Shown here in pieces: positions 7,272-48,281 of a DNA stretch of 64,000 bases. Both the position numbers and the translations under genes were made by a program. The stretch is from a virus: positions 1 through 64,000 of IMG/VR virus record IMGVR_UViG_3300037851_000553; one strand, written 5' to 3'. The notes beneath the pieces were generated by a model. The model made no database searches and was not told the DNA's origin. It worked only from the letters and a program-made list of their open reading frames with translations. Within the stretch, counting starts at the first letter, position 1, and every line of letters starts with the position of its first letter.

Positions 7272-7272
7272 T

Positions 7273-10501: not shown

Positions 10502-10504
10502 ACC

Positions 10505-11962
10505 GTGGACAAACTTTGTGATCTTGGTTCAGAAAGAGCTGTTCTAGCAGGTCTTTTCAATCATGGATTTGATGCCTATGTTGAAATAAACGACCTAATC
10601 ACTCACAACAGCTTTGTACACCAAAACAATCAGATTCTATACAAGTGTATAGAAAAGATACTTCAAGGTGGTGCTACTATAGACCTAGCGTCTATATTAT
10701 CTGCTGCTAATCAACTTAATTTTTCTAATGTTATAAACACAGAGCAAGAATTAGAATACATTCGTTCTTTGATGGATTTTCCCGTCAAACAGGACAACGT
10801 ACCGTTTTTTGCTGCACAAATCAGAAAACTTGAGTTTGCAAGAAACGCAAAAAAAATAGCGAAAAGAATCGAACATAATATTGATGAAATCAATGGTGAT
10901 GAATCCATTGATGATATCATTAGTATGATTGAAACCCCGCTCATTGATTTTTTGCGTGACGATAATACTGGTCAAAAACCCGAACAGTTGGGAGACGACA
11001 TTGAGAACTATTTAGAGTTCTTGATAGAAAATAAATGTGATCAGATTGGATTGTCAACGGGTTTTCCAAGGTTTGACGCGGTTATTGGTGGTGGATTACG
11101 CCGCAAGTGTGTTGATCTTGTGTCTGCACGCCCAGGCGTTGGTAAATCTGTTTTTGCTGATAACGTAGCTTTACACAACGCACGCAAGGGTATTCCAGTA
11201 TTAATGTTGGATACTGAAATGTCAAAAGAAGATCATTTAAACCGTTTGCTTGCACACATTAGCGGAGTGCCCATTCAAGAAATCGCCACGGGTAAGTTTA
11301 CAAACGATCCAGAAAAATTAATTGCTGTGCGTGAGGCTGTTAAAGAAATAAAAAAACTGCCTTATACTTATGTTAGTGTTGCGGGTGCCCCATTTGAAAC
11401 AATTATCAACACCATCAAGCGGTGGATTCTACGCGAAGTTGGGCAAGACGAAAATGGTAAAACCAAAGACTGTCTGGTTATTTACGATTATTTGAAACTC
11501 ATGTCATCTTCTGGCATTACAAACAATCTTCAAGAATATCAGGCTCTTGGATTTCAAATTACAGATTTGCACAACTTGGCTGTCAAATACGATTTTGCTT
11601 GTTTATCATTTGTACAATTAAACCGTGACGGCATCACCAAAGAATCAACCGACACAGTAAGCGGTTCGGATCGTCTTATTTGGTTGTGTACTTCATTTTC
11701 TCAGTTTAAGGTAAAATCTCAAGAAGAAGTTGCTGAGGATGGTCCTCATGGTGGTAATCGTAAAATTGTGACACTAAAAGCACGCCACGGTGCAGGAATG
11801 ATGGAAGGAAATTATATCAACCTAAATATGGTTGGATCGCACGCACAGCTTTTTGAACTTGGAACTAGGGATGAATTACGCAATCAGCCACAAGGAATCA
11901 TTGAGGGTGCAGACGCACCGTTTGAAGAAGATGGTTATGAATGTCCGTTTGATCCAAACTAA
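10505..11962 (+). CDS. dnaB: DnaB-type replicative helicase
   Basis: GTG start. N-terminal SERAVLAGL, Walker A ARPGVGKSV, MLDTEMS, VQLNRD. Confidence 0.92.
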   Translation: MDKLCDLGSERAVLAGLFNHGFDAYVEINDLITHNSFVHQNNQILYKCIEKILQGGATIDLASILSAANQLNFSNVINTEQELEYIRSLMDFPVKQDNVPFFAAQIRKLEFARNAKKIAKRIEHNIDEINGDESIDDIISMIETPLIDFLRDDNTGQKPEQLGDDIENYLEFLIENKCDQIGLSTGFPRFDAVIGGGLRRKCVDLVSARPGVGKSVFADNVALHNARKGIPVLMLDTEMSKEDHLNRLLAHISGVPIQEIATGKFTNDPEKLIAVREAVKEIKKLPYTYVSVAGAPFETIINTIKRWILREVGQDENGKTKDCLVIYDYLKLMSSSGITNNLQEYQALGFQITDLHNLAVKYDFACLSFVQLNRDGITKESTDTVSGSDRLIWLCTSFSQFKVKSQEEVAEDGPHGGNRKIVTLKARHGAGMMEGNYINLNMVGSHAQLFELGTRDELRNQPQGIIEGADAPFEEDGYECPFDPN

Positions 11963-17111: not shown

Positions 17112-18935
17112 ATGATAGACAAAATAGACTTTTCAAGATGCCGTTGTGAAAATGCTGGGTGGTGTAACTTATTTAAAAAAGAAATGCCGTCAAACCCTCC
17201 AAGTTGGCAATGGTGTCAGTCTATAACGCCATCACAGCGTGAAGAATATTATAAAAAGAATGTTATACAATCTTCTATGAAAAATATTAAAGACATGATT
17301 AGCAAAGTTGATATTGTTCAATTTTATGATAAGTTGCCAGAAATTCAAAGCGATTATGCTGTTTGTGTGATTCCAGCAAACCAAGACGCTGTTTCGTTAT
17401 TAGACGTAACAAGAGACAGTATTATCAGATATGCAAAAAAGTGTGGTGCTGATTATATAGAGTTGTCAGGAAATCAACACCCAGACTGGGTTATGGCAAA
17501 CAAGTACAGAGCTCATCAAGTATCTTCAAGATATAAAAAAACACTATATGTAGATTGTGATGTTGCTATAAAAGATGAAACACCAAATATCTTTCAGATT
17601 ACACCAGACGACAAAATATCGGCGTGTTCTGATTTTACAAGATTCAAAAAGTGGTCTGACACAGAATGGATAAGGAACGAACAAGAGTTAATTGTTCACA
17701 AAGTATTAAATTCTAATCATAAAAATATTAAAAATGGAAAATTCGAAGCAACGGAAATGCTTAATGGCGGATTTTTAGTAATACCGCAATCTTTAGCTGA
17801 TTATTATAAACAGCCATCAAAGCCATATCCTAGACAATGGTGTTTTGATCAAAATTATTTAACACTTACGCTTCCAGACGACAAACTGAATCTTTTATCT
17901 TTAAAATTTAATAACACAACCGTTGCGTCTACTAAATCTAAAGACACAATCATATGCTCAGAATTTTGGGAAGAATTAGACGAGTGTTACATTGTTCATG
18001 CAAATGGTATAAAAAATAACGAAATCAGAAAAGATATTTTAATAAGTTTTTTTGACGGTTCAATAAGAACAAAACAATCAACCGTAAAAACAAACACTCA
18101 GAACAATACGGACAAACCAAAAACAATACAACATAACCCATCCTGGGTTCTTGTTGTTGAACCAGAAGAACCGGTTATTGTGCCACAAAAAGATACGGCT
18201 GTTATCATGCTTGCGGCTGGTCCTTCTGGTAGAGAAATGGCACAATTTACAGGGCCAGCAGCTAAAAGATATGCCGAAAAAATTGGATCTGATTTTGTTA
18301 TGATAGGTGGCGAGGTTGCAAATCTAAAATTTCCATGCGGAGATAAGTTTAGGATACGTCATTATGCTAAATATTATCGTAGATCAATTTATATTGACGC
18401 TGATGTTTTTATAAGAAAAAACGCACCAAATCTCTTTGAAATCGTTCCAGAAGGAACGGTTGGTATGACAGACACATTTTTTACACACATAAAGCCATAC
18501 AAAAAACACCCAAATCCAAATTTTGACGTTATAAGAGACTGGGTTATTCCAGAAGTTTCTGAAATTATGTTGTCGCAGGGTGAAGAACCAACGCCTTCAC
18601 AAATCAAAAAACACTGGAATAGTGGGCTGATTGTTCTTGACCCTGATCTTGCTCAAAAATATTTTGAGCCCATGAAACGCCCATGTCCTCCGTTTTGGTG
18701 TTCAGAAGAGCATTGGTGCCGTAGAAATATTGATGTTCACGAATTAATTATAAGCGAAATTCCCACGAGTATACACTGGGGTTGGTGGTGGGATCAAGAT
18801 TTTAAAGAATTTGAACAAAGCAACGCAAGTTTTTTGCATTTGGCTGGAATGGGCCACAACGTTCCTTGGTGGGCAGCAACAGATATGGAGTGGAGAGTAA
18901 GAATTCTAAGAATACTAGGAACACTAGACAAATGA
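17112..18935 (+). CDS. two-domain GT8-like (GT-A) glycosyltransferase with N-terminal Cys4 module
   Basis: Two GT-A-like halves, each with a DxD (LYVDCDVAI and IYIDADVFI). N-terminal CRCENAGWC...WQWC. The N-terminal half is a paralog of 19558-21396. Confidence 0.65.
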   Translation: MIDKIDFSRCRCENAGWCNLFKKEMPSNPPSWQWCQSITPSQREEYYKKNVIQSSMKNIKDMISKVDIVQFYDKLPEIQSDYAVCVIPANQDAVSLLDVTRDSIIRYAKKCGADYIELSGNQHPDWVMANKYRAHQVSSRYKKTLYVDCDVAIKDETPNIFQITPDDKISACSDFTRFKKWSDTEWIRNEQELIVHKVLNSNHKNIKNGKFEATEMLNGGFLVIPQSLADYYKQPSKPYPRQWCFDQNYLTLTLPDDKLNLLSLKFNNTTVASTKSKDTIICSEFWEELDECYIVHANGIKNNEIRKDILISFFDGSIRTKQSTVKTNTQNNTDKPKTIQHNPSWVLVVEPEEPVIVPQKDTAVIMLAAGPSGREMAQFTGPAAKRYAEKIGSDFVMIGGEVANLKFPCGDKFRIRHYAKYYRRSIYIDADVFIRKNAPNLFEIVPEGTVGMTDTFFTHIKPYKKHPNPNFDVIRDWVIPEVSEIMLSQGEEPTPSQIKKHWNSGLIVLDPDLAQKYFEPMKRPCPPFWCSEEHWCRRNIDVHELIISEIPTSIHWGWWWDQDFKEFEQSNASFLHLAGMGHNVPWWAATDMEWRVRILRILGTLDK

Positions 18936-38526: not shown

Positions 38527-39274
38527 TTATAGTGTTGGGATTGTAACATTTGAACATAGATTTGAAAGATTTTTTAAACCACTTATAAATAAAATCAAAG
38601 AACTCAGACCAAATATAGAAATTGTTGTTGCTGTAAACGGCGAATACAAATGTAACTTCAATCAGAAGTACAGAAAAGAAATACTAAATTTTATTTCTGA
38701 ACACGATAATGTATTTCCAAACGTTTATACAGAATTTAGATCTTTAGCAAAGCTATGGAATAATTTATTAATAAATTCTAGTAATCATTTGGTTTTGATG
38801 CTAAACGACGACCTAACGATCACAAGTGAAAATTTTTTTAATACATTAGAATCTATTATTGATTCTGGTGAAAATTTTTTCAAAATCAACGGTAGCTGGA
38901 GTCATACGCTTTTAGACAGAAGAGTAGTAGCACAATTAAACTGGTTCGACGAAAGATTTCTTGGTGTTGGAGAAGAAGATGGCGACATGGAGTGGGAAAT
39001 TGGAAATGCAACCGGTGGTAGGTTTATCAAATCTTTAAACGTTCCAGATATTGTAAACATTGTAGACGCAGAGAATGTTTTGAAGAACATTAGGAAAGCA
39101 AACGTGAAATACACACAATTTAATGTTGACATGGCTCACGGTTATAAATATCGAATTGATCCAAAAGAAGGCAAGAGTTACGGTATAAACCCAAGGCCAT
39201 TAGTTTTGATAAGACCAAAACCTCCGCTTCATACTACAGAGTCTTTCTATTGGGAAAATAAAAATAACTTATGA
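38519..39274 (+). CDS. GT2-like glycosyltransferase
   Basis: YSVGIVTFEHRFERF...IEIVVAVNG, LMLNDDLTI, GVGEEDGDMEWE. Confidence 0.55.
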   Translation: MTDYSVGIVTFEHRFERFFKPLINKIKELRPNIEIVVAVNGEYKCNFNQKYRKEILNFISEHDNVFPNVYTEFRSLAKLWNNLLINSSNHLVLMLNDDLTITSENFFNTLESIIDSGENFFKINGSWSHTLLDRRVVAQLNWFDERFLGVGEEDGDMEWEIGNATGGRFIKSLNVPDIVNIVDAENVLKNIRKANVKYTQFNVDMAHGYKYRIDPKEGKSYGINPRPLVLIRPKPPLHTTESFYWENKNNL

Positions 39275-40476
39275 AAATAAGCAAACTGGACGCAGCTTCA
39301 AATAAACCGTTTTTACCAACCGACAAGAACGGAAGATCAATTAGTATTTATAATCTTGATCAAGCGGAGTTGGTTGGTGATATTTTTTATCCAAACGCCC
39401 TTGTGTATTCGCATATAGAAAATGTTTTATACAACCCAATAAACGAAAGAACAATGTCTTTGGGAGACAACAAGCGAACAGATTTTTTGTGGTCTCCACG
39501 GAACCGTATTGATGTAATTGAAACGCCTGTTTTTTTCTTTCTCTATAATACAGACAATTACTATCATTTTGTATACGACACACTTCCTTATCTTATTAGC
39601 TATTTTGAAGCAAAAAAGACATATCCAGATTTAAAGCTGCTGATAACAAAACCAAACCCAAACGTAGATATTTACCCCTTTGTAGCAGAGTTTTTAGAGC
39701 TAGCTGGTGTTAAAAAAGAAGAACTTTTGTTCGCACAACGCGATATTACATATAATAAAATGTTGGTATCCGATTCTTATACCCATGGACACGACTCCAA
39801 TTTACCACCAAGATCAGAAATATATTCTTTCTTACAAAGTCTAACAAAAAAGGTAGAAGAGGTAGAATCTTATGGTAAAAAGATATATGTGTCTAGAAGA
39901 TCGTGGATACACAACGACACATCAAACATTGGAACAAATTATACGAACAGAAGAAAATTAGAAAATGAAGATAAATTGGTTGCTTTTCTAACATCCTTGG
40001 GATATAATGAACTGTTTACTGAACTTTTATCTACAAAAGAAAAACTTGGCGTATTCAAACAGGCAACTCATGTGGTTGGTGCTATTGGTGGTGGAATGTG
40101 TAACACCCTTTTCTCACCGTCAGAAACTCGCGTTGAGTGTATTGTGTCTCCATATTTTTTAGATATAAATGCTAGATTTAGGTATTGTTTTAATAGCAAC
40201 ACAAGATACTGGACCGATACAAAACATACTGAAAAAGGCAAATTTAAAAAATATATGAGGGTAAAATTTGAAGGAAACAAAGTTGGCGAAATAAACGATA
40301 TAAACGGCGATCAAGCTACGGTCGCTTTTGCTGAATCAACAGTTTCTGGATGGAACTCAAGTGTCGCCTGGAACCTAAAACAAATCAATATCAATGAACT
40401 CGAAAAGATAGACGATGGCTTAAACAGTGAATGGTCTATGAATCTTGAAGTGTTCCAAGAAAATTTAGAAAAATGA
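39271..40476 (+). CDS. GT61/DUF563-like glycosyltransferase
   Basis: NYYHFVYDTLPYL motif. Extra C-terminal ~80 aa beta-rich segment. Confidence 0.6.
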   Translation: MKISKLDAASNKPFLPTDKNGRSISIYNLDQAELVGDIFYPNALVYSHIENVLYNPINERTMSLGDNKRTDFLWSPRNRIDVIETPVFFFLYNTDNYYHFVYDTLPYLISYFEAKKTYPDLKLLITKPNPNVDIYPFVAEFLELAGVKKEELLFAQRDITYNKMLVSDSYTHGHDSNLPPRSEIYSFLQSLTKKVEEVESYGKKIYVSRRSWIHNDTSNIGTNYTNRRKLENEDKLVAFLTSLGYNELFTELLSTKEKLGVFKQATHVVGAIGGGMCNTLFSPSETRVECIVSPYFLDINARFRYCFNSNTRYWTDTKHTEKGKFKKYMRVKFEGNKVGEINDINGDQATVAFAESTVSGWNSSVAWNLKQININELEKIDDGLNSEWSMNLEVFQENLEK

Positions 40477-41090
40477 ATTCTGCAATTGCTATATGCGGAG
40501 ACTCTGGAAGTGGTAAAACAACCATGTCTCTTTTTCTGTGTCAACAACTTAAAAATTGTACAATTCTTGAGTGTGACAGATACCACAAGTGGGAGCGTGG
40601 AGATTATCATTGGAGGTATTTTACACAATTAGATCCATCTGCGAACGAAATTGATTTAATGAAAAGCGATGTTAAGCGTTTAAAAGACGGCTTCTCAATA
40701 CAAAGAAAAGATTACGATCATTCAAAAGGAAAATTTACAGAACCAAAATTGATAGAACCAAATGAATACATCTTGGTTGTTGGGTTACATTCTATCAAAG
40801 CAGACGTAGATCTAAAAATATTCATTGACACACAAAAAGATTTAAAATACTTATGGAAAATAAACAGAGATTTTAAAGAAAGAGGACACTCGATTGAGGC
40901 AATTATAGAAAACATAAAAAATAGGGAAGTAGATTTTCAAAATTATATATTACCACAAAAACATCGTGCTGATATCATTGTGACACACTTTTGGGATAAA
41001 AAACAAAAACAAAGAATTGAAATAGTCAAGGAAAATACACTTTCAAAAAGAATAGCGAGAATATTAAATGAACAAGTACACACAGATTGA
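40473..41090 (+). CDS. PRK/uridine-kinase-family P-loop kinase
   Basis: IAICGDSGSGKTT, ECDRYHKWERGD. Confidence 0.65.
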   Translation: MNSAIAICGDSGSGKTTMSLFLCQQLKNCTILECDRYHKWERGDYHWRYFTQLDPSANEIDLMKSDVKRLKDGFSIQRKDYDHSKGKFTEPKLIEPNEYILVVGLHSIKADVDLKIFIDTQKDLKYLWKINRDFKERGHSIEAIIENIKNREVDFQNYILPQKHRADIIVTHFWDKKQKQRIEIVKENTLSKRIARILNEQVHTD

Positions 41091-41802
41091 TATTTGCAAC
41101 AACAACACAAAAAACCTTCTTAGCGAAGAAATATACGAAGCGTTTAATAAGTTTATTTTTTCAAACGACATTAAGCTGATTGGTAAGCTATTGCACAGGT
41201 TTCATTTTTTCGAACAGACGCGACATTTGCCAGGAGATATTGTAGAGATTGGAGTTTTCAAGGGGTCTGGAGTGGCAACGTTCGTAAAGTTTTTAGAAAT
41301 TTTTATGCCAAACTCAAACAAGAAAGTAATAGGATTTGATATCTTTGATACAAGTGAAGGTTCTTTTATTCTAAAAACAAGAGATACGGAAATTGATAAA
41401 AATAGTATGGAAACTGTCTATAGTAAAGTTGATGCTAACGAACTTTCAATAGAAGCTGTTGAAGCTCGCCTACTTGGTATTTCAAACAACGTTCAAAACA
41501 AAATAAAACTTATCAAGGGGGATGTACAAGAAACATTACCAATATTTCTGGAAGAAAACCCAGGATTTAGGGCTTCTCTGATTTATATTGATGTAGATAT
41601 AGAGCGTCCAACATATCACGCGTTGACTAATCTTTGGGACAGGCTGCTTCCTGGTGGTGTTATTTTGTTTGATGAATATGAATACCACCTATTCAGTGAG
41701 AGCGTTGGTGTCGATAAATTCTTAAAAGAAAAGAACCTTAAATACAATGTGATAACTACAGATTGGTTTGCTCCAACAGCATATATGAGGAAAGAAGCAT
41801 GA
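41068..41802 (+). CDS. TylF/macrocin O-methyltransferase family protein
   Basis: GDIVEIGVFKGSGVATF, VIGFDIFD, IYIDVDIERPTYHAL...PGGVILFDEY. Confidence 0.75.
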   Translation: MNKYTQIDICNNNTKNLLSEEIYEAFNKFIFSNDIKLIGKLLHRFHFFEQTRHLPGDIVEIGVFKGSGVATFVKFLEIFMPNSNKKVIGFDIFDTSEGSFILKTRDTEIDKNSMETVYSKVDANELSIEAVEARLLGISNNVQNKIKLIKGDVQETLPIFLEENPGFRASLIYIDVDIERPTYHALTNLWDRLLPGGVILFDEYEYHLFSESVGVDKFLKEKNLKYNVITTDWFAPTAYMRKEA

Positions 41803-42485
41803 AGAAGCAGATATGGAAAAATATGGAAGCAAAAAGTAAATACTTTGCAGAATTGGCATACATGGCAAAAAGTCTTGAAAAATATGTTGTTGGTGTTGAG
41901 GGTAATCTGTCAGCACGAACAGAAGATGGTTTTTGTATAAAAGCTAGCGGAAAATCATTTCAGGATATTAAAAACCTAGACGGCTTGTCAATATCTTTTT
42001 GTGACACACGCGGTACTTGTGTTGGTGGGTCCAAGCCAAGCATGGAAGTAGAGTTTCATACGCTTCTATACAAGTTGAACCCAAATATTAACTTTATAGC
42101 ACACACACATCCCATAAACTGTCTTAAAATTTTGGTATGTAAAGAAGATACTGATAAATTTGCAAATGAAAGATACTTTCCAGATCAGGTAATATTCAAT
42201 GGTGTAAAATCTTGTGTTGTTCCGTATGCTAAGCCAGGAAAAATGCTAGCACAAGAGATATCTTATGCAACAAAAGAGTCTGGTTTTGTTGTGCCGGAAG
42301 TTTTTTTATTGAGAAACCATGGAATTATTTGTTGCGGAAAGACAGCAAAACAGTGTGTGATAGCAACAGAAATTTGTGAAAAGGCGGCAGCGTGCTTTTC
42401 TAGAACAGCAACCCCGCTGACAAAAAAAGAGATTGAAGAATTAATAAATGACAAAGAAGAACAATTTAGAAAAAATTTGATATGA
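41799..42485 (+). CDS. class II aldolase/adducin-N family protein (aldolase, epimerase or dehydratase)
   Basis: EGNLSAR, PSMEVEFHTLLY, IAHTHP, LRNHGIICCG. ATGA overlap with the upstream gene. Confidence 0.75.
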   Translation: MKKQIWKNMEAKSKYFAELAYMAKSLEKYVVGVEGNLSARTEDGFCIKASGKSFQDIKNLDGLSISFCDTRGTCVGGSKPSMEVEFHTLLYKLNPNINFIAHTHPINCLKILVCKEDTDKFANERYFPDQVIFNGVKSCVVPYAKPGKMLAQEISYATKESGFVVPEVFLLRNHGIICCGKTAKQCVIATEICEKAAACFSRTATPLTKKEIEELINDKEEQFRKNLI

Positions 42486-42790
42486 ACATACGTGTAGATA
42501 TAGATGAAACCATTTGTTTTTATGAAGAAAAAATACCACTAGACGGCAAAAGGGACTACTCAAAAGCAATACCAAGCCACGATAATATAGCCAAAATCAA
42601 TAAATTGTTTGATGATGGTCATTATATTGTTTATTGGACAGCGAGAGGAAGCAGAAGCGGTATTGATTGGAATGATTTTACTAGAAAACAATTAGAATCC
42701 TGGGGATGTAAATTCCACGAATTATTTTGCGATAAACCCTATTACGACTTGTTTATAGAGGATAGAAGTAAAAGGGTAGAAGAAATATGA
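42482..42790 (+). CDS. HAD-superfamily phosphatase-like protein
   Basis: VDIDETI (DxDxT motif I) and YWTARGS (motif II). Confidence 0.55.
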   Translation: MNIRVDIDETICFYEEKIPLDGKRDYSKAIPSHDNIAKINKLFDDGHYIVYWTARGSRSGIDWNDFTRKQLESWGCKFHELFCDKPYYDLFIEDRSKRVEEI

Positions 42791-43641
42791 GAAAAATGGT
42801 TAAAATTCAATTGTTGTATGGTATATCTCTTTATATGGAATATTTTTCCATCTTTAGGGGGCACCCAGAAATTGATTTTGAAGTAGTTTATGATGATAGA
42901 CTGATACGTTCTCTAAGGCGTGAATATGACGATAGATACAGTCAACGCATGAAAGTGCTATTGACTGATATGGCAAACAGTCTTGATAATGTAAGAATAA
43001 CAGACAATAAAGAGGGAACAATATCGTCTCCATTTCTAGTTGATATTCTACCGCACGATTTAGCCAATTATCTGAAAACAAAACCAAATTCTCTTAAACC
43101 CGCTTTTGATCCTATAGAACAGAAGAACAAAGATCCTTATATAGTAATGAACACCAAATGTATAACGGTTCAAGACTTTGGATTAAAAGAAAGATGGACA
43201 GCTTTAAAAGACCCTCTATTTAATTTGTTTAACAAGTACAATACAAAAATTAAAATTGTAGGAGAAAAACAGCCGTCAGATTGTACAGAATACAAAATAC
43301 ATGGCACGTTTTCTATTTATAATGATATAATAAATGGTGGATTATTGAACCTAGAAGATGAAACACTCTCAGACACGGTGGCGTTATACAGTCTAGAATC
43401 TATTTCCAGAAATATCAATATCTTAAGACGATCAATGTTTAATGTTCATATTGGTGAAGGTGGTGGATATGTTCTGTATACACATTGCAACAACCTGCTT
43501 GCTTTCACAAATAAAAAGATCCCAATGTTAGATTTTATAAACAATCCAAATTTTCATTACAAAACTTTTGATCAAGCTGGCTTTTTGCGTTTGATAGAGG
43601 AGAAACTTATTGATGTTAAAAATAATATCACACAGGGGTAA
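42787..43641 (+). CDS. hypothetical protein
   Basis: 284 aa, coupled start, no recognised motif. Confidence 0.4.
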   Translation: MRKMVKIQLLYGISLYMEYFSIFRGHPEIDFEVVYDDRLIRSLRREYDDRYSQRMKVLLTDMANSLDNVRITDNKEGTISSPFLVDILPHDLANYLKTKPNSLKPAFDPIEQKNKDPYIVMNTKCITVQDFGLKERWTALKDPLFNLFNKYNTKIKIVGEKQPSDCTEYKIHGTFSIYNDIINGGLLNLEDETLSDTVALYSLESISRNINILRRSMFNVHIGEGGGYVLYTHCNNLLAFTNKKIPMLDFINNPNFHYKTFDQAGFLRLIEEKLIDVKNNITQG

Positions 43642-44107
43642 TCTCAACGGACCAATACCCGAAAAGGAAAACTCAATAGATTACATTGACAAAGCAATAA
43701 GAACGGGATATGATGTTGAAGTTGACGTTCGAACAAAAGACGGGTCTCTGCATCTTGGACACGATTTTGCACAAAATAAAATCTCATACAACGAACTTGC
43801 TTACAGAGAGGGTAGTTTGTGGGTACACTGTAAAGATATAGACTCTTTTTTTGTTTGTAGAAACTTAAGATCTTTTTGCCACACAGCAGACCCGTTTTGC
43901 TTGATACACAATTACTCACCGATAAATAATTACCTACCTTTGGTTTGGGTTCATGATCTTAGTTTAAATTTAAATCATATAAGTGTAATACCACTTTTAT
44001 CAATACAAGATATCGACAATTTTGATTTAGGACAAGCAAAAAATATATATGGAATATGTACAGATTACCCAAACTATTTAAGTGAGAAACTGTATGGACA
44101 AAAATAA
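43613..44107 (+). CDS. glycerophosphodiester phosphodiesterase (GDPD)-like protein
   Basis: ISHRGN...ENSIDYIDKAIRTGYDVEVDVRTKDGSLHLGHD. Confidence 0.6.
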   Translation: MLKIISHRGNLNGPIPEKENSIDYIDKAIRTGYDVEVDVRTKDGSLHLGHDFAQNKISYNELAYREGSLWVHCKDIDSFFVCRNLRSFCHTADPFCLIHNYSPINNYLPLVWVHDLSLNLNHISVIPLLSIQDIDNFDLGQAKNIYGICTDYPNYLSEKLYGQK

Positions 44108-45641
44108 CATTCAGTTGATCGTTCCAATGTCTGGAACGGGAAAAAGATTTGTAGACGCTGGATACAAAGAGCCAAAACCACTAATAGAAGTAGACGGAAA
44201 ACCAATTATAGCCCATGTTCTAGATATATTTCCTGGCGTAAACGATGTTACTTTTATCTGTAATGAAGATCACGTTCAAAATACCAACATTGTAGAGATT
44301 TTAAACAAACATTGTCCTGATGGTAAAATTATAACAATCCAGGGTCACAAGAAGGGGCCTGTTTATTCTGTATTGCAGATTTTTGACAAAATTGATGATC
44401 AAAAACCAGTAATTGTTAGCTATTGTGACTATGGCACAGTTTGGAATTTCTATAAGTTTTTAGAATCTGTTGACGGGTTTGACGGTGGAATTCCATGTTA
44501 TACCGGGTTTCATCCTCATATGCTTGGTTCTGATAACTATGCTTTTTGTAAAGAAAACAATTTGGTTTTACAAGACATAAAAGAAAAAGAACCGTTTACA
44601 AAAAACAAAATGAAAGAATATGCTTCAAATGGTACATATTTTTTTGCTTCTGGAAAGATTCTTAAAAAATATTTTCAAAAAACCGTTGATGAAAACCTGA
44701 ATCTTAATGGTGAATTTTATGTAAGCCTTGTGTACAAGAAGCTGCTTGAGGATGGATTAAAAACAAAAATCTTCGAAATTGAAAAAATGCTACAGTGGGG
44801 CACTCCTTACGATCTAGAAATTTACAAAAAGTGGTCTAGCTGTTTTTCAGATTTGAAATTAAAGAAAGAAAAAGCACCAGAACAAAATTTTACATTGATC
44901 CTTCCTGTGGCAGGAAAGGGTGAAAGATTTTCTGTAGAAGGATATAAAAAACCTAAACCGATGGTTGTTGTAGATTCATATCCAATGGTCATTGCTGCTG
45001 TAAAAAGTTTACCAAATTTTAAAGAATCTTATTTTATTTGTTTGGAAAATCACGTTTTAGAGCATAATATAGATAGGGAAATACAGAACTATTATCCGAA
45101 CTCTAAAATAATTTCATTGTCAAAAGTTACCGAGGGTCAGGCTTGCACCTGCGAATTGGCTATAAAAAAAATAAATCCTCAAGATTCTATTCTAATCTCA
45201 GCCTGTGACAACGGGGCTTGCTACGACGAATCTGAGTTTTTAAAAATGATAAGTTCAGATGTTGATGTTGTTGTCTGGACGTTCAGAAACAATCAAACCA
45301 GCAAAATAAAGCCAAATATGTATTCGTGGGTCGAAGTAGACGAAAATAACAATGTTCTAAGCGTATCGTCTAAAAAATTTACTGGTGGTGACCCGCTAAA
45401 AAAACATGCAATTATAGGCACCTTTTATTATAAAAGAGCACAAGATTTTGTTAACGGTTTGAACGAAAATTATAGAAGAAATATTCGTACAAACGGAGAG
45501 TTTTTTGTTGACGATATTATAAACCGAAACGTAGAGTCTGGATTAAAAGTAAAGGTTTTTGAAGTAAATCATTATATTTGTTGGGGAACGCCAGACGACT
45601 ACAGAACATATAATTATTGGAGAGAACACTTTGTCAAATAA
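44094..45641 (+). CDS. tandem double nucleotidyltransferase-domain protein
   Basis: Two repeats of the same N-terminal signature: IVPMSGTGKRFVDAGYKEPKPLIEVDGKPII and ILPVAGKGERFSVEGYKKPKPMVVVDSYPMV. Confidence 0.7.
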   Translation: MDKNNIQLIVPMSGTGKRFVDAGYKEPKPLIEVDGKPIIAHVLDIFPGVNDVTFICNEDHVQNTNIVEILNKHCPDGKIITIQGHKKGPVYSVLQIFDKIDDQKPVIVSYCDYGTVWNFYKFLESVDGFDGGIPCYTGFHPHMLGSDNYAFCKENNLVLQDIKEKEPFTKNKMKEYASNGTYFFASGKILKKYFQKTVDENLNLNGEFYVSLVYKKLLEDGLKTKIFEIEKMLQWGTPYDLEIYKKWSSCFSDLKLKKEKAPEQNFTLILPVAGKGERFSVEGYKKPKPMVVVDSYPMVIAAVKSLPNFKESYFICLENHVLEHNIDREIQNYYPNSKIISLSKVTEGQACTCELAIKKINPQDSILISACDNGACYDESEFLKMISSDVDVVVWTFRNNQTSKIKPNMYSWVEVDENNNVLSVSSKKFTGGDPLKKHAIIGTFYYKRAQDFVNGLNENYRRNIRTNGEFFVDDIINRNVESGLKVKVFEVNHYICWGTPDDYRTYNYWREHFVK

Positions 45642-46485
45642 GAACGGATTTGTATATTTCCATCAAGGCATGACAGATCTAGTTATCTGCATGGGGTTGA
45701 TAGATTATTATAGAGAATTATACAAGAATATAAAGGTGTTATTAAGATCCGACGCCAAAGAAATGATGGATTTCTATATTCGTGGAAAAGACAATGTAGA
45801 GCCAATTTATTTTAATGGAGACGACGGTAGATATTATGGAACAATATCAAAAACAGATATAGTTACAAATTCAGACTATTTTTTTTGTCCTTCTGATTTG
45901 AATGGTTATGGTAATTTGTGGCTAAACCCAAGTTATGCGATGCTTACGCACGCAGAACATGACAAATGGAGAGAAGATTGTCACGCCTTTTATTGGTACA
46001 GACAAAACAAAAAGCCAGCAGCATATTTTTCCGAGGCTTTTTATACTTTTTATGATATTCCATACACAACAAGAATAAATAAATTTAATGTAAACAGAGA
46101 CCTTGATTTAGAACAAAGTGTCTACAACCAGTTTATAAAAGAAAACGGTACAGATTATATATTGTATCACGATGATCCAAACAGGGACGCAACACCAGTA
46201 AAAGGTGTTCCTTATAGATCAACAAAAATCAATTTTGATTCTATTGACGAAAACTATAAATATGTAAACCTTCATAGAAAATCAAAGATATTTTTTGATT
46301 ACATAAAAGTGATCGAAAACGCAAAAGAATTGCACCTTGTTGATTCTGTTTGGGCGTGCTTGATATATCAACTAGACTGTAGATACGAATTGTTCAGAAA
46401 CAAAAACATAAATATCTATTGTCAACGCGGCCATTACAACCTATTTTCTAATCCAATTGTACTTCCAAACTGGAGACTAATATGA
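45631..46485 (+). CDS. hypothetical protein
   Basis: 284 aa, TTG start, no recognised motif. Confidence 0.4.
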   Translation: MSNKNGFVYFHQGMTDLVICMGLIDYYRELYKNIKVLLRSDAKEMMDFYIRGKDNVEPIYFNGDDGRYYGTISKTDIVTNSDYFFCPSDLNGYGNLWLNPSYAMLTHAEHDKWREDCHAFYWYRQNKKPAAYFSEAFYTFYDIPYTTRINKFNVNRDLDLEQSVYNQFIKENGTDYILYHDDPNRDATPVKGVPYRSTKINFDSIDENYKYVNLHRKSKIFFDYIKVIENAKELHLVDSVWACLIYQLDCRYELFRNKNINIYCQRGHYNLFSNPIVLPNWRLI

Positions 46486-47315
46486 AGGTACATGCTAATG
46501 TGCCGTTTCGCAACGAGGCGGTATTATTAAAACATCTTGTTCCAATTTGGAATAAATATCCAATTGATGAGTGGGTTTTCTTTAACGATAGATCAACAGA
46601 CAATAGTGTAGAAATTGTTAAAACTTTAGACGCTAAAGTTACAATAATTGATAACACAGAAGCTATAGCTGGCGGCGAGTGGCACGAAACAAAGTGTAGA
46701 CAGGTCATGCTAGATTACAGTAGAAAAAATAAAGCAGAACTTATTTTTGCTATTGATGCAGATGAATTCTTATCTTCCAACATGGTTAAAAACTGGGATG
46801 AACTAATAAACATACTGAGCGACATGAGTTTGAACACATACTGGTATAACTTTGTAGATGACACACAGCATATAAGACAAGATTCACAATATTTACATAA
46901 TTATAAAACTTTTATTATGCACGTTCCAAGTGTGTTAAATTTTACTGGCAATCTACTCAAACACACGCCAAGAACCCCGTTTACAGTGCAGAACCAAGTT
47001 AAAACCAAAACATACGGACTTATGCATCTACAATCCATGAATGTTAAGTTTTATGCACTAAAACAGTTGTGGTATAAACACTGGGAATATCACGTAGAAA
47101 AGCGTCCTATAGAATTTATCAACAGAAGATACGATCCGGTGGTAAACAACCTAGATTTTAATAAAACAAGAATAGAACATTATCTTGTAGAAGGAATAAG
47201 TTTAGATCCTAGCATTTTCGATGAATTGTTAGAAGTCAAGGGATATAAAAAATATATCTTAGAGAACCTAGTTCCAGAACTTGTAACATTTGGTAAAGAA
47301 TTTTTGGAGGATTAA
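46482..47315 (+). CDS. GT2-like glycosyltransferase
   Basis: VFFNDRSTDNSVEIV and IFAIDADEFL. Confidence 0.6.
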   Translation: MKVHANVPFRNEAVLLKHLVPIWNKYPIDEWVFFNDRSTDNSVEIVKTLDAKVTIIDNTEAIAGGEWHETKCRQVMLDYSRKNKAELIFAIDADEFLSSNMVKNWDELINILSDMSLNTYWYNFVDDTQHIRQDSQYLHNYKTFIMHVPSVLNFTGNLLKHTPRTPFTVQNQVKTKTYGLMHLQSMNVKFYALKQLWYKHWEYHVEKRPIEFINRRYDPVVNNLDFNKTRIEHYLVEGISLDPSIFDELLEVKGYKKYILENLVPELVTFGKEFLED

Positions 47316-48281
47316 ATGAAGGTCTTGCTAACCGGTGGGAGTGGATTTTTGGGAAGAAATATTCAAGAATATTTCAAAAGCCTAAAGGGGTATGATTTGA
47401 TATCAGTTTCTAGTCGTGATTATGACCTGCGTGATAGTCGTGCTTGCTGTAAGATGTTAGAAAAACACCGACCAGATGCTATTGTTCACGCCGCCGGAAG
47501 CGTTGGCGGAATTTTAGCAAACAGCAAAAACCCTGGCAAATTCATGTATGACAACCTTGCTATGGGTATAAACATGATTGAAAACACCAGAAGATATAGA
47601 GATAACCATCTTTATAAAGTAAAATTTATAATGATAGGAACCGTCTGTTCTTACCCAAAGCACACACCGGTACCGTTCAAAGAAGAAAGCCTGTGGGACG
47701 GTTATCCAGAAGAAACAAACGCTCCATACGGAATCGCTAAAAAGACACTGATGAAACTTTGTGAAACTTATCACCAACAATACGAACTAGATATTGTAAA
47801 TTTGATTCCGGTGAATATGTATGGCCCACACGACCATTTTAATCTAACAACAAGCCACGTTATACCAGCTTTAATTTTAAAATTTTATTCAGCAATCAGG
47901 AATAAAAGAAAAAAAATAGAGGTATGGGGCACCGGCGAGGCGTCTAGAGAATTTTTATACGCAAAAGATTGTGCCAGAGCAATAGAGTCTGTTCTTTACT
48001 ACAATTGGGATAGAACCATTGGGCCAGAACCTATAAACATTGGTACCGGACAAGAAATCACCATCAAAGACCTTGTTGATGAAATTGGTGAACAAATGGG
48101 TTTTAAAGGAACAATTGAGTGGGATTTTTCTAGACCAGACGGACAACCACGACGCTGCTTAGATGTTGGTAGTGCCAAAAAGCGTCTTGGTTTTAAAGCA
48201 GAAACAGATTTAAAAACCGGACTAAGACAAACCATTGATTGGTTTTTGACAACCAAAAAACAAAAAGAAACTGGAGAATGA
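47316..48281 (+). CDS. fcl: GDP-L-fucose synthase
   Basis: LTGGSGFLG, AAGSVGGILAN, GTVCSYPK, NAPYGIAKK, NMYGPHDHFNLTTSHVIPAL, WGTGEASREFLY, RPDGQPRRCLDV. Collinear with E. coli Fcl as I recall it. Confidence 0.9.
   Translation: MKVLLTGGSGFLGRNIQEYFKSLKGYDLISVSSRDYDLRDSRACCKMLEKHRPDAIVHAAGSVGGILANSKNPGKFMYDNLAMGINMIENTRRYRDNHLYKVKFIMIGTVCSYPKHTPVPFKEESLWDGYPEETNAPYGIAKKTLMKLCETYHQQYELDIVNLIPVNMYGPHDHFNLTTSHVIPALILKFYSAIRNKRKKIEVWGTGEASREFLYAKDCARAIESVLYYNWDRTIGPEPINIGTGQEITIKDLVDEIGEQMGFKGTIEWDFSRPDGQPRRCLDVGSAKKRLGFKAETDLKTGLRQTIDWFLTTKKQKETGE

What the first reader, a model, noticed from the sequence alone, without database searches (positions are those of the whole stretch)
40473..45641. 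Kinase, O-methyltransferase, class II aldolase, HAD phosphatase, unknown, GDPD and double-nucleotidyltransferase sub-cluster: a candidate new activated sugar or polyol-phosphate branch
Seven tightly coupled genes combine a PRK/uridine-kinase-like P-loop kinase, a TylF methyltransferase and a class II aldolase/epimerase-family protein (HTHP and NHG motifs). They also include a minimal HAD phosphatase (DIDET), an unknown 284 aa protein and a GDPD-like esterase. The last is a protein with two tandem nucleotidyltransferase domains. The logic of phosphorylate, rearrange or epimerise, dephosphorylate and nucleotidyl-activate resembles heptose or CDP-polyol (ribitol/arabinitol) pathways. The enzyme families used differ from the textbook versions (GmhA/HldE/GmhB, TarI/TarJ). 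The GDPD domain hints at phosphodiester-linked, teichoic-acid-like substituents. The product cannot be named from sequence.
Basis: inference. Interest (0 to 1): 0.6.

Follow-up and report, generated by a model that had tools for sequence, protein, structure and literature searches.

The report
Phage phosphoribulokinase-type sugar-activation cassette
A large uncultured phage carries a widespread but biochemically uncharacterised enzyme set, led by a Calvin-cycle-type kinase, that most likely turns ribulose phosphate into a nucleotide-activated five-carbon sugar for a virus-made glycan.

Summary
The seven overlapping genes are real and carry the stated motifs. The window is the start of a complete 173-kb phage.

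The "unknown" 284-aa protein is a compact GT-B glycosyltransferase with a GT9-like fold. The 165-aa protein is a minimised GDPD barrel that keeps its catalytic residues. Both halves of the double nucleotidyltransferase keep their signature motifs.

The functional unit is not these seven genes. It is a conserved cassette of GT61-like transferase (39271-40476, outside the finding), PRK-type kinase, class II aldolase-family enzyme, small HAD, mini-GDPD and tandem nucleotidyltransferase. I found it in most of 80 viral loci, including giant-virus bins. In 80 bacterial loci from many phyla it is joined to GtrA, GT2 and membrane machinery. The O-methyltransferase recurs in some loci; the GT9-like transferase is rare.

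The kinase keeps every PRK residue named for catalysis and Ru5P binding. The bacterial HAD is closest to haloarchaeal RuBP 5-phosphatase. The best reading is Ru5P to RuBP to pentulose-1-phosphate to an NDP-sugar. The product is unknown.

I found no support for a teichoic-like, heptose or methionine-salvage reading, and no paper describing the cassette. This scan has flagged the same cassette at least 12 times on other DNA.

The parts
39271..40476 (+). GT61-like glycosyltransferase. It is a cassette member lying just upstream of the finding, and the probable transferase that uses the activated sugar in viruses.
   Evidence: Pfam Glyco_transf_61, 1.2e-13; phrog_29695, 6.8e-83. Orthologues sit beside the tandem nucleotidyltransferase in cyanophages S-SM2 and Bellamy (37-43% identity). 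Found in 61 of 80 viral loci.
40473..41090 (+). Stand-alone PRK-type (plant/cyanobacterial phosphoribulokinase-like) P-loop sugar-phosphate kinase, 205 aa. It lacks the C-terminal part of true PRK.
   Evidence: Pfam PRK, 3.2e-37. NCBIfam NF005655 phosphoribulokinase, 3.4e-50 at 171 bits, below the 236-bit cut-off. The best PDB hits are cyanobacterial and plant PRKs, 8.8e-33. D35, R42, Y81, H83, R132, D133 and R137 match CrPRK Asp57, Arg64, Tyr103, His105, Arg159, Asp160 and Arg164. Present in 58 of 58 viral loci with at least 9 kb of upstream sequence.
41068..41802 (+). TylF-family SAM-dependent O-methyltransferase, a recurrent accessory of the cassette.
   Evidence: Pfam TylF, 6.3e-13, and Methyltransf_24, 1.9e-11. 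Found in 24 of 80 viral loci, where it is usually between kinase and aldolase. Absent from the bacterial operon.
41763..42485 (+). Class II aldolase/adducin-family metalloenzyme of a distinct clade. The likely true start is the ATG at 41799.
   Evidence: Pfam Aldolase_II, 6.2e-28; phrog_13212, 4.7e-42. All NCBIfam equivalogs (OtnC, FucA, Ru1P aldolase, AraD, MtnB, RhaD) score far below their cut-offs. Best PDB hits are 2irp, 6vop and FucA. Invariant E95, H114, H116 and H186, plus a C-terminal E233..R236 motif, across viral and bacterial members.
42482..42790 (+). Capless mini-HAD phosphatase, 102 aa.
   Evidence: The DxDxT, T, K and acidic motifs are conserved in 8 viral copies. phrog_1238, 2e-24, carries the misnomer 'phosphoheptose isomerase'. 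PDB 9iqw 'capsule biosynthesis protein', 4.6e-10. Found in 57 of 80 viral loci.
42787..43641 (+).
   Evidence: No Pfam, NCBIfam or PHROG hit. 77 representative clusters at E<=1e-3. AF2 pLDDT 94.7, pTM 0.91. Foldseek PDB top hits are the heptosyltransferases TibC, WaaC and WaaF, E 3.5e-6, probability 1.0, TM about 0.49. Found in only 5 of 80 viral loci.
43610..44107 (+). Minimised GDPD/PI-PLC-superfamily phosphodiesterase-like protein, 165 aa.
   Evidence: Pfam GDPD, 6.6e-4, N-terminal part only; phrog_34507, 2.4e-40. The family has 721 proteins, and those listed are mostly 141-172 aa. Invariant H8, R9, N11, E20, N21, E37, D39, H51, D52, H73 and K75. AF2 pLDDT 95.1. The best Foldseek hits are mostly GDPDs: 1v8e at 1.7e-4, 2pz0 at TM 0.58. 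The bacterial 196-aa counterpart matches by hhalign at 90% probability, and PGAP names it PI-PLC/GDPD family.
44082..45641 (+). Tandem (double) sugar-phosphate nucleotidyltransferase.
   Evidence: Pfam NTP_transf_3, NTP_transferase and IspD; phrog_3980, 5.6e-116. The two halves are about 28-31% identical to each other, and both keep GxGxR(F) and PKP. More than 3500 relatives. The N-terminal half matches PDB 4evw at 2.1e-13.
45631..46485 (+). Conserved 284-aa protein of unknown function that often travels with the cassette.
   Evidence: No Pfam or NCBIfam hit. 37% identical to the gene between GT61 and the kinase in L005. Found in 25 of 80 viral loci. Its nearest Atlas neighbours are viral hypothetical proteins, with a weak GT9/DUF6165 lead only.
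46482..48281 (+). Downstream neighbours, a GT2-like transferase and a GDP-fucose-synthase-like SDR. They keep this order in the closest relatives but are not part of the conserved core.
   Evidence: Pfam Glyco_tranf_2_4 and Epimerase. NCBIfam GDP-L-fucose synthase at 280 bits, below the 500-bit cut-off. Same order in L099, L100, L102 and L106.

Best explanation
The region is this phage's copy of a widespread, uncharacterised sugar-activation-and-transfer cassette. It sits inside a roughly 30-kb glycan island.

Proposed route:
1. The PRK-type kinase phosphorylates C1 of ribulose 5-phosphate, or a very close ketose phosphate, to give a 1,5-bisphosphate (RuBP).
2. The HAD phosphatase removes the distal 5-phosphate. 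This leaves a pentulose 1-phosphate that can close to a furanose.
3. The class II aldolase-family enzyme resets stereochemistry at C3 or C4 of the ketose-1-phosphate, by Zn-enediolate or retro-aldol/aldol chemistry, instead of cleaving it.
4. The tandem nucleotidyltransferase makes the nucleotide-activated form.
5. The mini-GDPD handles a phosphodiester or cyclic-phosphate intermediate or by-product.
6. The GT61-like transferase puts the sugar on the phage-directed glycan.
7. In this lineage a TylF-type enzyme O-methylates the sugar, and a GT9-like GT-B adds a further glycosylation step.

Shown here: the gene set, folds, motifs, synteny and distribution.
Inferred: every substrate, the order of steps 2 and 3, the role of the GDPD-like protein, and the acceptor.

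My odds: about 0.8 that the cassette makes and transfers a nucleotide-activated sugar, about 0.55 that the route starts from Ru5P via RuBP and yields a five-carbon sugar, and about 0.3 that the transferred residue is a ketopentofuranose.
For: Synteny:
- Among 58 viral loci with enough upstream DNA, the kinase is in 58, GT61 in 50, the aldolase in 49, the HAD in 48 and the GDPD-like gene in 47. The window's exact order recurs in L099, L100, L102 and L106.
- Bacterial loci from many phyla share the order kinase fusion, HAD, aldolase, tandem nucleotidyltransferase, GtrA, GT2, GDPD-like protein. The kinase fusion is in 56 of 80 loci and the GDPD-like protein in 53 of 80. The same set is on an E. 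coli IncR plasmid.
- Coupling to GtrA plus a GT2 whose nearest families include polyprenyl-phosphate glycosyltransferases argues for a glycosyl donor.

Kinase:
- Its best structural relatives are plant and cyanobacterial PRKs, at 8.8e-33.
- All residues named in the PRK literature for catalysis and Ru5P binding are kept and are invariant in the family.
- Three of four cassette-bearing bacterial genomes have no RuBisCO-family gene, and neither does this phage, so the kinase does not serve CO2 fixation.

HAD:
- The bacterial cassette HAD has as its top NCBIfam hit the haloarchaeal ribulose-1,5-bisphosphate 5-phosphatase, at 1.6e-48.
- That enzyme makes cyclised Ru1P and is encoded in an operon with a FucA-type Ru1P aldolase (PMC9700705).

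Other parts:
- The window's aldolase also hits the Ru1P aldolase model, at 1.1e-13.
- Both nucleotidyltransferase halves keep their signature motifs.
- The GDPD-like protein keeps the His/Arg, Glu/Asp and His set. It occurs fused to HAD and methyltransferase domains elsewhere.
- The two cultured Synechococcus phages that carry nucleotidyltransferase, GT61, aldolase, HAD and GDPD-like genes lack the PRK-type kinase genome-wide. That fits host Calvin-cycle PRK supplying RuBP.
Against: - No enzyme was assayed and no product is known.
- All equivalog scores are below their cut-offs.
- The window's own mini-HAD shows no detectable homology to the RuBP 5-phosphatase. Only the bacterial HAD does.
- A pentulose 1-phosphate carries its phosphate on a primary carbon. 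Simple nucleotidylation would therefore not give a glycosyl donor, so an extra, unproven step is needed.
- Class II aldolase-family enzymes could equally cleave or dehydrate the substrate.
- The cyanophage argument rests on two phages, and both encode other kinases in their islands that could replace the PRK-type one.
- The role of the second nucleotidyltransferase domain is unexplained in the simple scheme.
Confidence: 0.55

Rival explanations
1. The cassette makes an aldopentofuranose donor, such as NDP-arabinofuranose or NDP-ribofuranose. The route would be RuBP to a pentose 1,5-bisphosphate to a pentofuranose 1-phosphate, following the NDP-heptose logic exactly. The GDPD-like protein would reopen the 1,2-cyclic phosphate that labile NDP-furanoses shed.
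For: The order kinase, bisphosphate, HAD, nucleotidyltransferase mirrors the heptose pathway. GT61, GT2 and GtrA need a glycosyl donor. GDPD-type chemistry proceeds through cyclic phosphates (established knowledge of the family), and the active-site residues are kept.
Against: The ketose-1-P to aldose-1-P isomerisation is known only from MtnA/R15P-isomerase (IF-2B) proteins. None is in this phage, and none is among the conserved bacterial neighbours. Class II aldolase-fold chemistry acts at C3/C4, not at C1/C2 (established knowledge).
Confidence: 0.15
2. This is the first reader's alternative: a CDP-polyol or pentulose-phosphate donor for phosphodiester-linked, teichoic-acid-like substituents. 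The nucleotidyltransferase would act like TarI, AbpA or IspD on a primary phosphate.
For: Weak IspD and ribitol-5-P cytidylyltransferase matches. A GDPD-fold protein is present. Ketose phosphates are cytidylylated directly in the characterised CDP-6-D-glucitol pathway (PMC10918830) and, from my own knowledge of the literature, in the CDP-arabinitol pathway.
Against: The core has no conserved reductase. No TagF- or LicD-type phosphotransferase appears among the ORFs scanned between 28.8 and 50.3 kb. The bacterial version is wired to GtrA, GT2 and a membrane protein, a route for lipid-phosphate-linked monosaccharides.
Confidence: 0.13
3. The activated sugar is used to hypermodify phage DNA, as in glucosyl- or arabinosyl-hydroxymethylcytosine phages, and not to build a glycan.
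For: The island is interleaved with replication genes (RNR, RecA-like, DnaB, primase, split DnaE). The phage encodes a thymidylate-synthase-family protein.
Against: That protein passes the ordinary thymidylate synthase model, 234 bits against a 108-bit cut-off. The same cassette in bacteria is tied to membrane glycan-decoration genes. The island holds many glycosyltransferases and methyltransferases, which is far more than DNA glycosylation needs.
Confidence: 0.06
4. It is a variant NDP-heptose pathway, as older phage annotations imply ('phosphoheptose isomerase', 'heptose kinase/adenylyltransferase').
For: The add-on transferase has a GT9 heptosyltransferase-like fold. There are weak nucleotidyltransferase matches to 6-deoxy-manno-heptose pathway proteins. 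The overall logic of kinase, HAD and nucleotidyltransferase is the same.
Against: No SIS_2 (GmhA-type) gene was found in the genome. The 'phosphoheptose isomerase' PHROG is in fact the mini-HAD. The kinase is PRK-type with the Ru5P-binding residues. The GT9-like gene is in only 5 of 80 loci.
Confidence: 0.04
5. It is a catabolic or salvage module: methionine or 5-deoxyribose salvage, or a pentose-bisphosphate breakdown route that rewires host carbon.
For: The trio of PRK-like kinase, HAD and FucA-like aldolase resembles the haloarchaeal route. The aldolase's best PDB hit is Aquifex aq_1979, which I recall as an MtnB-type protein (from memory, not tested).
Against: The genes overlap with, and are syntenic with, nucleotidyltransferases and glycosyltransferases in about 160 loci. 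There is no MtnA/R15P isomerase. The MtnB model scores 46 bits against a 137-bit cut-off.
Confidence: 0.03

Closest known systems
NDP-glycero-manno-heptose biosynthesis (GmhA, HldE/HddA kinase, GmhB HAD phosphatase, HldC/HddC nucleotidyltransferase)
   Same: The overall logic is shared. A sugar monophosphate is phosphorylated to a bisphosphate, a HAD enzyme removes the distal phosphate, and a nucleotidyltransferase activates the product. The genes also sit in a glycan island beside transferases.
   Different: The kinase is PRK-type rather than PfkB or GHMP. There is no SIS isomerase in the genome. A class II aldolase-family enzyme, a GDPD-fold protein and a duplicated nucleotidyltransferase have no counterparts in the heptose pathway.
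Non-carboxylating pentose bisphosphate pathway of haloarchaea: RuBP 5-phosphatase (HAD) plus Ru1P aldolase (FucA-type), PMC9700705
   Same: RuBP is dephosphorylated at C5 by a HAD enzyme whose gene is in an operon with a class II aldolase acting on ribulose 1-phosphate. The bacterial cassette HAD has that phosphatase as its best NCBIfam hit (1.6e-48). The window's aldolase hits the Ru1P aldolase model (1.1e-13).
   Different: That pathway is catabolic. Its RuBP comes from R15P isomerase, not PRK, and it has no nucleotidyltransferase, GDPD-like protein or glycosyltransferase. All scores here are below the equivalog cut-offs. The phage uses an unrelated mini-HAD.
Plant/cyanobacterial-type phosphoribulokinase (e.g. 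PDB 6gve, 6hzk, 6kev)
   Same: The P-loop, the Asp/His catalytic dyad and all named Ru5P-binding residues are conserved. The E-value is 8.8e-33 over residues 5-172.
   Different: The protein is only 205 aa and so lacks the C-terminal third of PRK. It scores below the NCBIfam cut-off (171 against 236 bits). It sits in a glycan operon in genomes without RuBisCO. In bacteria it is fused to a polytopic membrane domain of about 390 aa.
Three-component glycan decoration systems (GtrA/GtrB/GtrC, CsbB/GtcA/YfhO, ArnC/ArnT)
   Same: The bacterial form of the cassette ends in GtrA, a GT2 whose nearest NCBIfam families include polyprenyl-phosphate glycosyltransferases, and large membrane proteins.
   Different: The phage form has none of these. 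It uses a soluble GT61-like transferase, which implies direct cytoplasmic transfer. The known systems use common UDP-sugars and carry no dedicated precursor pathway.
CDP-alditol and CDP-ketose pathways (TarI/TarJ CDP-ribitol, AbpA/AbpB CDP-arabinitol, C. jejuni CDP-6-D-glucitol, PMC10918830)
   Same: A nucleotidyltransferase of the same superfamily acts on a pentulose or hexulose phosphate carried on a primary carbon.
   Different: Those pathways pair the transferase with a reductase and a phosphotransferase. They have no kinase, aldolase-family enzyme or GDPD-like protein, and none of the defining partners is conserved here.

Membership tests
Phosphoribulokinase, plant/cyanobacterial type (PF00485; NCBIfam NF005655) | Walker A P-loop | tested here: met
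   A GxSGxGKT-type loop lies at residues 9-16. It is invariant in the family alignment A4.
Phosphoribulokinase, plant/cyanobacterial type (PF00485; NCBIfam NF005655) | Catalytic Asp57/His105 dyad and Ru5P-binding Arg64, Tyr103, Arg159, Asp160, Arg164 (CrPRK numbering; PMC9978339, bioRxiv 10.1101/422709) | tested here: met
   The window residues D35, H83, R42, Y81, R132, D133 and R137 align to them. All are invariant in 15 family members.
Phosphoribulokinase, plant/cyanobacterial type (PF00485; NCBIfam NF005655) | Whole-protein score over the curated cut-off and full length (about 330 aa, with the C-terminal part) | tested here: not met
   171 bits against a 236-bit cut-off. The protein is 205 aa and matches only profile positions 11-193 of 326.
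Phosphoribulokinase, plant/cyanobacterial type (PF00485; NCBIfam NF005655) | Ru5P-dependent ATP turnover giving RuBP | not testable with these tools
   This needs an enzyme assay.
Class II aldolase/adducin family (PF00596) | Pfam gathering score, and a metal site of three His plus an acidic residue | tested here: met
   98.4 bits against 22.2. E95, H114, H116 and H186 are invariant across viral and bacterial members.
Class II aldolase/adducin family (PF00596) | Membership of a characterised equivalog (FucA, RhaD, AraD, MtnB, OtnC, Ru1P aldolase) | tested here: not met
   The best is OtnC at 73 bits against 250. Ru1P aldolase scores 51 against 300, and MtnB 46 against 137.
HAD phosphatase superfamily | Motifs I-IV (DxDxT, Thr/Ser, Lys, acidic pair) | tested here: met
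   The motifs are conserved in 8 aligned viral copies. The protein matches PDB 9iqw at 4.6e-10 and phrog_1238 at 2e-24. No Pfam or NCBIfam model reaches E 0.01.
Glycerophosphodiester phosphodiesterase (GDPD, PF03009) | Pfam gathering score and a full (beta/alpha)8 barrel of about 240 aa | tested here: not met
   20.3 bits against 23.6, N-terminal 46 residues only. The protein is 165 aa, and the relatives listed out of 721 are mostly 141-172 aa.
Glycerophosphodiester phosphodiesterase (GDPD, PF03009) | GDPD fold and the catalytic His-Arg, metal-binding Glu/Asp and second His | tested here: met
   The best Foldseek PDB hits are mostly GDPDs, with probability 1.0 for the top ones. H8, R9, E37, D39 and H51 are invariant. 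My mapping of these onto catalytic roles rests on knowledge of the family, not on a test.
Sugar-phosphate nucleotidyltransferases (PF00483/PF12804) | N-terminal GxGxR loop plus a conserved Lys, in each half | tested here: met
   G18, G20, R22, K32 and G278, G280, R282, K292 are invariant in 15 sequences.
Sugar-phosphate nucleotidyltransferases (PF00483/PF12804) | Membership of a characterised equivalog (GlmU, RmlA, GalU, HddC, IspD, TarI, MurU) | tested here: not met
   All are far below their cut-offs, the best being 52.8 bits against 292.
NDP-heptose pathway | GmhA-type SIS sedoheptulose-7-P isomerase encoded with the kinase, phosphatase and nucleotidyltransferase | tested here: not met
   PF13580 was not found in the complete 173-kb genome, while the control genomes matched.
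CDP-polyol (teichoic-type) donor pathways | A partner reductase and a TagF- or LicD-type polyol-phosphate transferase | tested here: not met
   Neither family appears in the Pfam scans of the ORFs checked between 28.8 and 50.3 kb. Neither is among the conserved neighbours in bacteria or viruses.
Methionine / 5-deoxyribose salvage (MtnK/MtnA/MtnB, DrdK/I/A) | MtnA/IF-2B-family isomerase and an MtnB-level aldolase-family score | tested here: not met
   PF01008 is absent from the genome. TIGR03328 scores 46 bits against 137. The kinase is PRK-type.
Glycosyltransferase GT-B fold (GT9-like), for 42787-43641 | Two-Rossmann-domain GT-B architecture matching solved GT9 enzymes | tested here: met
   pLDDT 94.7. 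The top 27 Foldseek ranks, as far as listed, are GT9 heptosyltransferases, E 3.5e-6 to 1e-4. Sequence identity is only 8-12%, so the donor specificity cannot be inferred.

The most novel reading that the evidence does not exclude
The cassette may be a route to true ketopentofuranosyl donors by a 'phosphate walk'.

Proposed steps:
1. Ru5P goes to RuBP (kinase).
2. RuBP goes to a pentulose 1-phosphate (HAD), with the stereochemistry set by the aldolase-family enzyme.
3. Nucleotidyltransferase domain A nucleotidylates the primary 1-phosphate.
4. The mini-GDPD lets the neighbouring anomeric 2-OH attack. This expels NMP and forms a 1,2-cyclic phosphate, which it reopens to the 2-phosphate.
5. Nucleotidyltransferase domain B then makes NDP-2-pentulofuranose, for example NDP-xylulofuranose. 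This is the donor for GT61 in viruses or GT2 in bacteria.

Each step has a chemical precedent, all from my own knowledge of the literature: RtcA-type activation and cyclisation, PhnP opening a ribosyl 1,2-cyclic phosphate to the anomeric phosphate, and PI-PLC/GDPD cyclic intermediates.

The scheme uses every conserved domain exactly once. It would also explain how the xylulofuranose residues known in several bacterial glycans (PMC8707391) are activated.
Probability: 0.12. Interest if true: 0.85.

Novelty: new variant of a known kind. Interest (0 to 1): 0.62.

Why it matters
Dedicated nucleotide-sugar pathways are a known kind of system. This one combines a Calvin-cycle-type kinase, a class II aldolase-family enzyme, a stripped-down phosphodiesterase and a duplicated nucleotidyltransferase. 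Nine full-text searches found no paper describing that combination.

The cassette occurs in thousands of metagenomic proteins, in bacteria of many phyla, on an E. coli plasmid, in cultured cyanophages and in giant-virus bins. An unknown surface sugar may therefore be common in nature.

Working it out would:
- define a new use for RuBP outside carbon fixation;
- possibly answer how ketopentoses such as xylulose are activated for glycan synthesis;
- show what large phages build with 30-kb glycan islands, whether virion coats or host-surface remodelling.

The parts are small and soluble in the phage version, so the pathway can be reconstituted directly.

Tried and rejected
- **Nucleotide search against cultured phages:** no match.
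- **Single-protein scan of viral contigs:** nothing. The alignment-based scan worked.
- **Literature:** nine full-text searches found no description of the cassette. The topics were kinase + aldolase + nucleotidyltransferase, PRK-like + glycosyltransferase, xylulose + capsule, PDB codes 9IQW and 4EVW, PRK structures, and the pentose bisphosphate pathway.
There was no match by BLAST or by profile.
- **Is the C-terminal extension of the bacterial aldolase a fused mini-HAD?** Rejected. The mini-HAD profile hits no bacterial neighbour, and the extra length is two insertions.
- **Do photosynthetic cyanobacteria carry a kinase-less cassette?** Only 7 of 401 sampled Cyanobacteriota genomes had a nucleotidyltransferase match. 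Four were a distant split pair without the cassette, so the test was uninformative.
- **Link to E. coli O95 (xylulose O-antigen):** DNA searches of 5,426 E. coli genomes found the cassette only on two near-identical plasmids.
- **Longer forms of the GDPD-like protein:** I found HAD, FkbM and DUF7796 fusions. I did not find the nucleotidyltransferase-GDPD fusion reported in earlier scan notes, so I did not verify that fusion.
- **Promoter and terminator scans:** at chance level.
- **Bacterial HAD against CbbY (XuBP phosphatase):** the PDB search gave only generic HADs. The NCBIfam RuBP 5-phosphatase hit was more informative.

Full report
**Setting.** The window is the first 64 kb of a complete 172,984-bp virus record with direct terminal repeats. 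Bases 1.7-28 kb encode ribonucleotide reductase, a RecA-like protein, DnaB, primase and a split DnaE. Carbohydrate genes run from about 17 to 48 kb. The finding is therefore one part of a phage glycan island, not a bacterial operon.

**Observation.** All seven ORFs are present on the + strand, and each overlaps the next by 4-40 nt.
- Pfam gives PRK (3.2e-37), TylF (6.3e-13), Aldolase_II (6.2e-28), a sub-threshold GDPD match (6.6e-4) and nucleotidyltransferase families.
- No NCBIfam equivalog cut-off is reached by any of the seven proteins.
- PHROGs shows that four of them belong to phage families of unknown or misnamed function. phrog_1238, called 'phosphoheptose isomerase', is in fact the mini-HAD.
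- The aldolase gene most likely starts at the ATG at 41799, which gives an ATGA overlap with the methyltransferase stop.
- Promoter-like and terminator-like sites are at chance level.

- The 284-aa 'unknown' has 77 representative relatives. It folds with pLDDT 94.7. Its best PDB matches are the GT9 heptosyltransferases TibC, WaaC and WaaF (E 3.5e-6, probability 1.0, TM about 0.49, 8-12% identity). It is a compact GT-B glycosyltransferase whose donor cannot be read from the fold.
- The 165-aa protein belongs to a family of 721 proteins, and those listed are mostly 141-172 aa. It folds with pLDDT 95.1. Its best PDB matches are mostly glycerophosphodiester phosphodiesterases. H8, R9, E37, D39 and H51 are invariant. 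It is a minimised GDPD barrel that probably remains active.

**What the unit is.**
- Cultured Synechococcus phages S-SM2 and Bellamy carry the order tandem nucleotidyltransferase, GT61-like, aldolase, mini-HAD, GDPD-like protein. Identity to the window's proteins is 36-61%.
- Metagenomic contigs add a kinase with an extra N-terminal domain of about 220 aa.
- I scanned 80 viral loci, several of them from giant-virus bins. Of the 58 with enough upstream DNA, the kinase is in 58, GT61 in 50, the aldolase in 49, the HAD in 48 and the GDPD-like gene in 47.
- Across all 80 viral loci the methyltransferase is in 24 and the GT9-like gene in 5.
- Four loci repeat the window's order exactly, including the downstream 284-aa unknown, a GT2-like gene and an SDR.
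- The core therefore includes the GT61-like gene at 39271-40476, which lies outside the finding. The methyltransferase and the GT9-like transferase are add-ons.

**Bacterial counterpart.** A scan of species-representative genomes returned 80 loci. They come from Flavobacteriaceae, Lysobacter, Halobacillus halophilus, Campylobacterota, non-photosynthetic Cyanobacteriota, Chlamydiota, Bdellovibrionota, Fusibacter and others.
- Clustering the neighbours gave a conserved operon, in this order:
  - a protein of about 690 aa, with a polytopic membrane domain of about 390 aa followed by the PRK-type kinase;
  - a HAD_2 hydrolase;
  - the aldolase-family protein;
  - the tandem nucleotidyltransferase;
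  - GtrA;
  - a GT2;
  - a 196-aa protein;
  - often a DUF6798 membrane protein as well.
- The 196-aa protein shares the N-terminal catalytic block of the viral GDPD-like protein (hhalign probability 90%).
- On an E. coli IncR plasmid that carries the whole set, PGAP names it a PI-PLC/GDPD family protein.
- A cassette ending in GtrA, a GT2 related to polyprenyl-phosphate glycosyltransferases and membrane proteins is the layout of periplasmic glycan decoration systems. That implies the product is a glycosyl donor.
- The phage version replaces this module with a soluble GT61-like transferase.

**Chemistry that can be argued.**
- The kinase is a close relative of plant and cyanobacterial PRK (8.8e-33 to PDB 6gve; uridine kinases only about 1e-11).
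- Every residue the PRK literature names is present and invariant in the family. These are the Asp57/His105 dyad, Arg64 and Tyr103 at the Ru5P phosphate, and Arg159, Asp160 and Arg164. In the window they are D35, H83, R42, Y81, R132, D133 and R137.
- The protein lacks the C-terminal third of PRK and scores below the NCBIfam cut-off. I therefore say that it works like PRK, not that it is PRK.
- It does not serve CO2 fixation. The phage has no RuBisCO-family gene, and neither do three of four cassette-bearing bacterial genomes.
- The bacterial HAD has as its best NCBIfam hit the haloarchaeal ribulose-1,5-bisphosphate 5-phosphatase (1.6e-48; the next hit is 1e-37; below cut-off).
- That enzyme produces cyclised ribulose 1-phosphate and is co-operonic with a FucA-type Ru1P aldolase (PMC9700705).
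- The window's aldolase-family protein also hits the Ru1P aldolase model (1.1e-13). It keeps the Glu plus three-His metal site and a family-specific C-terminal motif.
- Together these point to Ru5P, then RuBP, then a pentulose 1-phosphate. The aldolase-family enzyme probably resets stereochemistry, because cleavage would make the downstream nucleotidyltransferase and transferases pointless.
- Both nucleotidyltransferase halves keep the GxGxR and Lys signatures.

**A supporting but weak observation.** The two complete cyanophage genomes that carry the module lack the PRK-type kinase (the same query matched in three bacterial genomes). This would make sense if the host's Calvin-cycle PRK supplies RuBP. 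Both phages encode other kinases in their islands, so this is only suggestive.

**Open problem and the most novel reading.**
- A pentulose 1-phosphate has its phosphate on a primary carbon. Nucleotidylating it does not give a glycosyl donor, yet the transferases downstream need one.
- The two unexplained parts, a second nucleotidyltransferase domain and a GDPD-type enzyme, could together move the phosphate to the anomeric carbon.
- The scheme is this: nucleotidylate the 1-phosphate, let the 2-OH attack to give a 1,2-cyclic phosphate plus NMP, open it to the 2-phosphate, then nucleotidylate again.
- Each step has a precedent elsewhere (RtcA, PhnP, PI-PLC/GDPD chemistry, from my own knowledge). 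Nothing here tests the scheme, and I give it about 0.12.
- A simpler role for the GDPD-like protein is to reopen the cyclic phosphate that labile NDP-furanoses shed.
- Xylulofuranose is a known rare constituent of glycans in E. coli O95, Y. enterocolitica O:10, C. jejuni RM1221, E. saburreum and Devosia submarina (PMC8707391). I could not test whether those organisms carry the cassette.

**Rivals.**
- *Polyol-phosphate, teichoic-like donor.* It lacks its defining partners, a reductase and a TagF- or LicD-type transferase.
- *NDP-heptose variant.* The genome has no GmhA-type isomerase, and the kinase has a Ru5P-type site.
- *Methionine or 5-deoxyribose salvage.* There is no MtnA-family gene, and it does not fit the synteny.
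- *DNA hypermodification.* It cannot be excluded, but the genome's thymidylate-synthase homologue passes the ordinary ThyA model. The bacterial cassette is wired to surface-glycan machinery.

**Relation to earlier scan notes.** The scan has flagged this cassette at least 12 times in other phages, giant viruses and bacteria. Earlier follow-ups reached a similar 'PRK-based five-carbon sugar' reading. I used two of their leads and checked both myself: the haloarchaeal pathway paper and the E. coli plasmid. I could not verify the reported nucleotidyltransferase-GDPD fusion in a giant virus.

**Verdict.**
- The feature is a new variant of a known kind, a dedicated nucleotide-sugar pathway built from unexpected enzyme families. 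It is widespread and uncharacterised.

Noticed in passing
L008:6150-8234 and 55 other bacterial loci (alignment A4): In bacteria the PRK-type kinase is fused behind a polytopic membrane domain of about 390 aa, with a conserved FPYPP..LY and AD-containing first loop that looks like a GT-C fold. It also has a C-terminal extension of about 100 aa. Fusing a cytoplasmic sugar-phosphate kinase to a membrane glycosyltransferase-like domain is unusual, and I cannot explain it.
   Followed up: partly
L179 (E. coli plasmid NZ_CP145712.1, 6022-14984): The full bacterial cassette sits on a 33-kb IncR plasmid from a human stool E. coli. A near-identical plasmid comes from a bullfrog isolate. It was found on no E. 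coli chromosome among 5,426 complete genomes at the DNA level.
   Followed up: partly
L002 (Synechococcus phage S-SM2, 16947-17613) and L003 (Bellamy, 17852-18202): The cyanophage islands carry a second mini-HAD paralogue (S-SM2) and a small cupin annotated 'cysteine dioxygenase'. Bellamy also has a nucleotidyltransferase-phosphatase fusion annotated 'phosphatase' (L003:9785-10942). These suggest a second, related sugar branch.
   Followed up: no
L089-L092 (four Cyanobacteriota genomes of 1.7-2.1 Mb, about 31-34% GC): These have two adjacent single-domain nucleotidyltransferase genes, about 27% identical to the tandem protein and separated by one stop codon. None of the cassette partners is nearby. 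They could be a split or ancestral form of the tandem enzyme.
   Followed up: partly
L060 (contig binned as Planctomycetaceae TMED10, 5960-10681): It carries the cyanophage-type order (mini-HAD, nucleotidyltransferase, GT61, aldolase, mini-HAD, GDPD-like protein) at 37-60% identity. The 12-kb contig is probably viral DNA that was binned into a bacterial MAG by mistake.
   Followed up: no
P0325-P0329 (relatives of window 43610-44107): The mini-GDPD domain occurs fused to HAD (Hydrolase_3), to an FkbM methyltransferase, to DUF7796 and to unknown 260-aa domains. This hints that it works closely with the phosphatase and methylation steps.
   Followed up: partly
window 45631-46485: This 284-aa protein has no family assignment. 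It accompanies the cassette in 25 of 80 viral loci, sometimes in two copies. Its Atlas neighbours are viral hypothetical proteins, with only a weak GT9/DUF6165 lead.
   Followed up: partly
G000:C1:155092-156072 (outside the window): The phage encodes a 339-aa thymidylate-synthase-family protein that passes the ordinary ThyA model. It lies next to an A1S_2505-family phage non-structural protein.
   Followed up: partly
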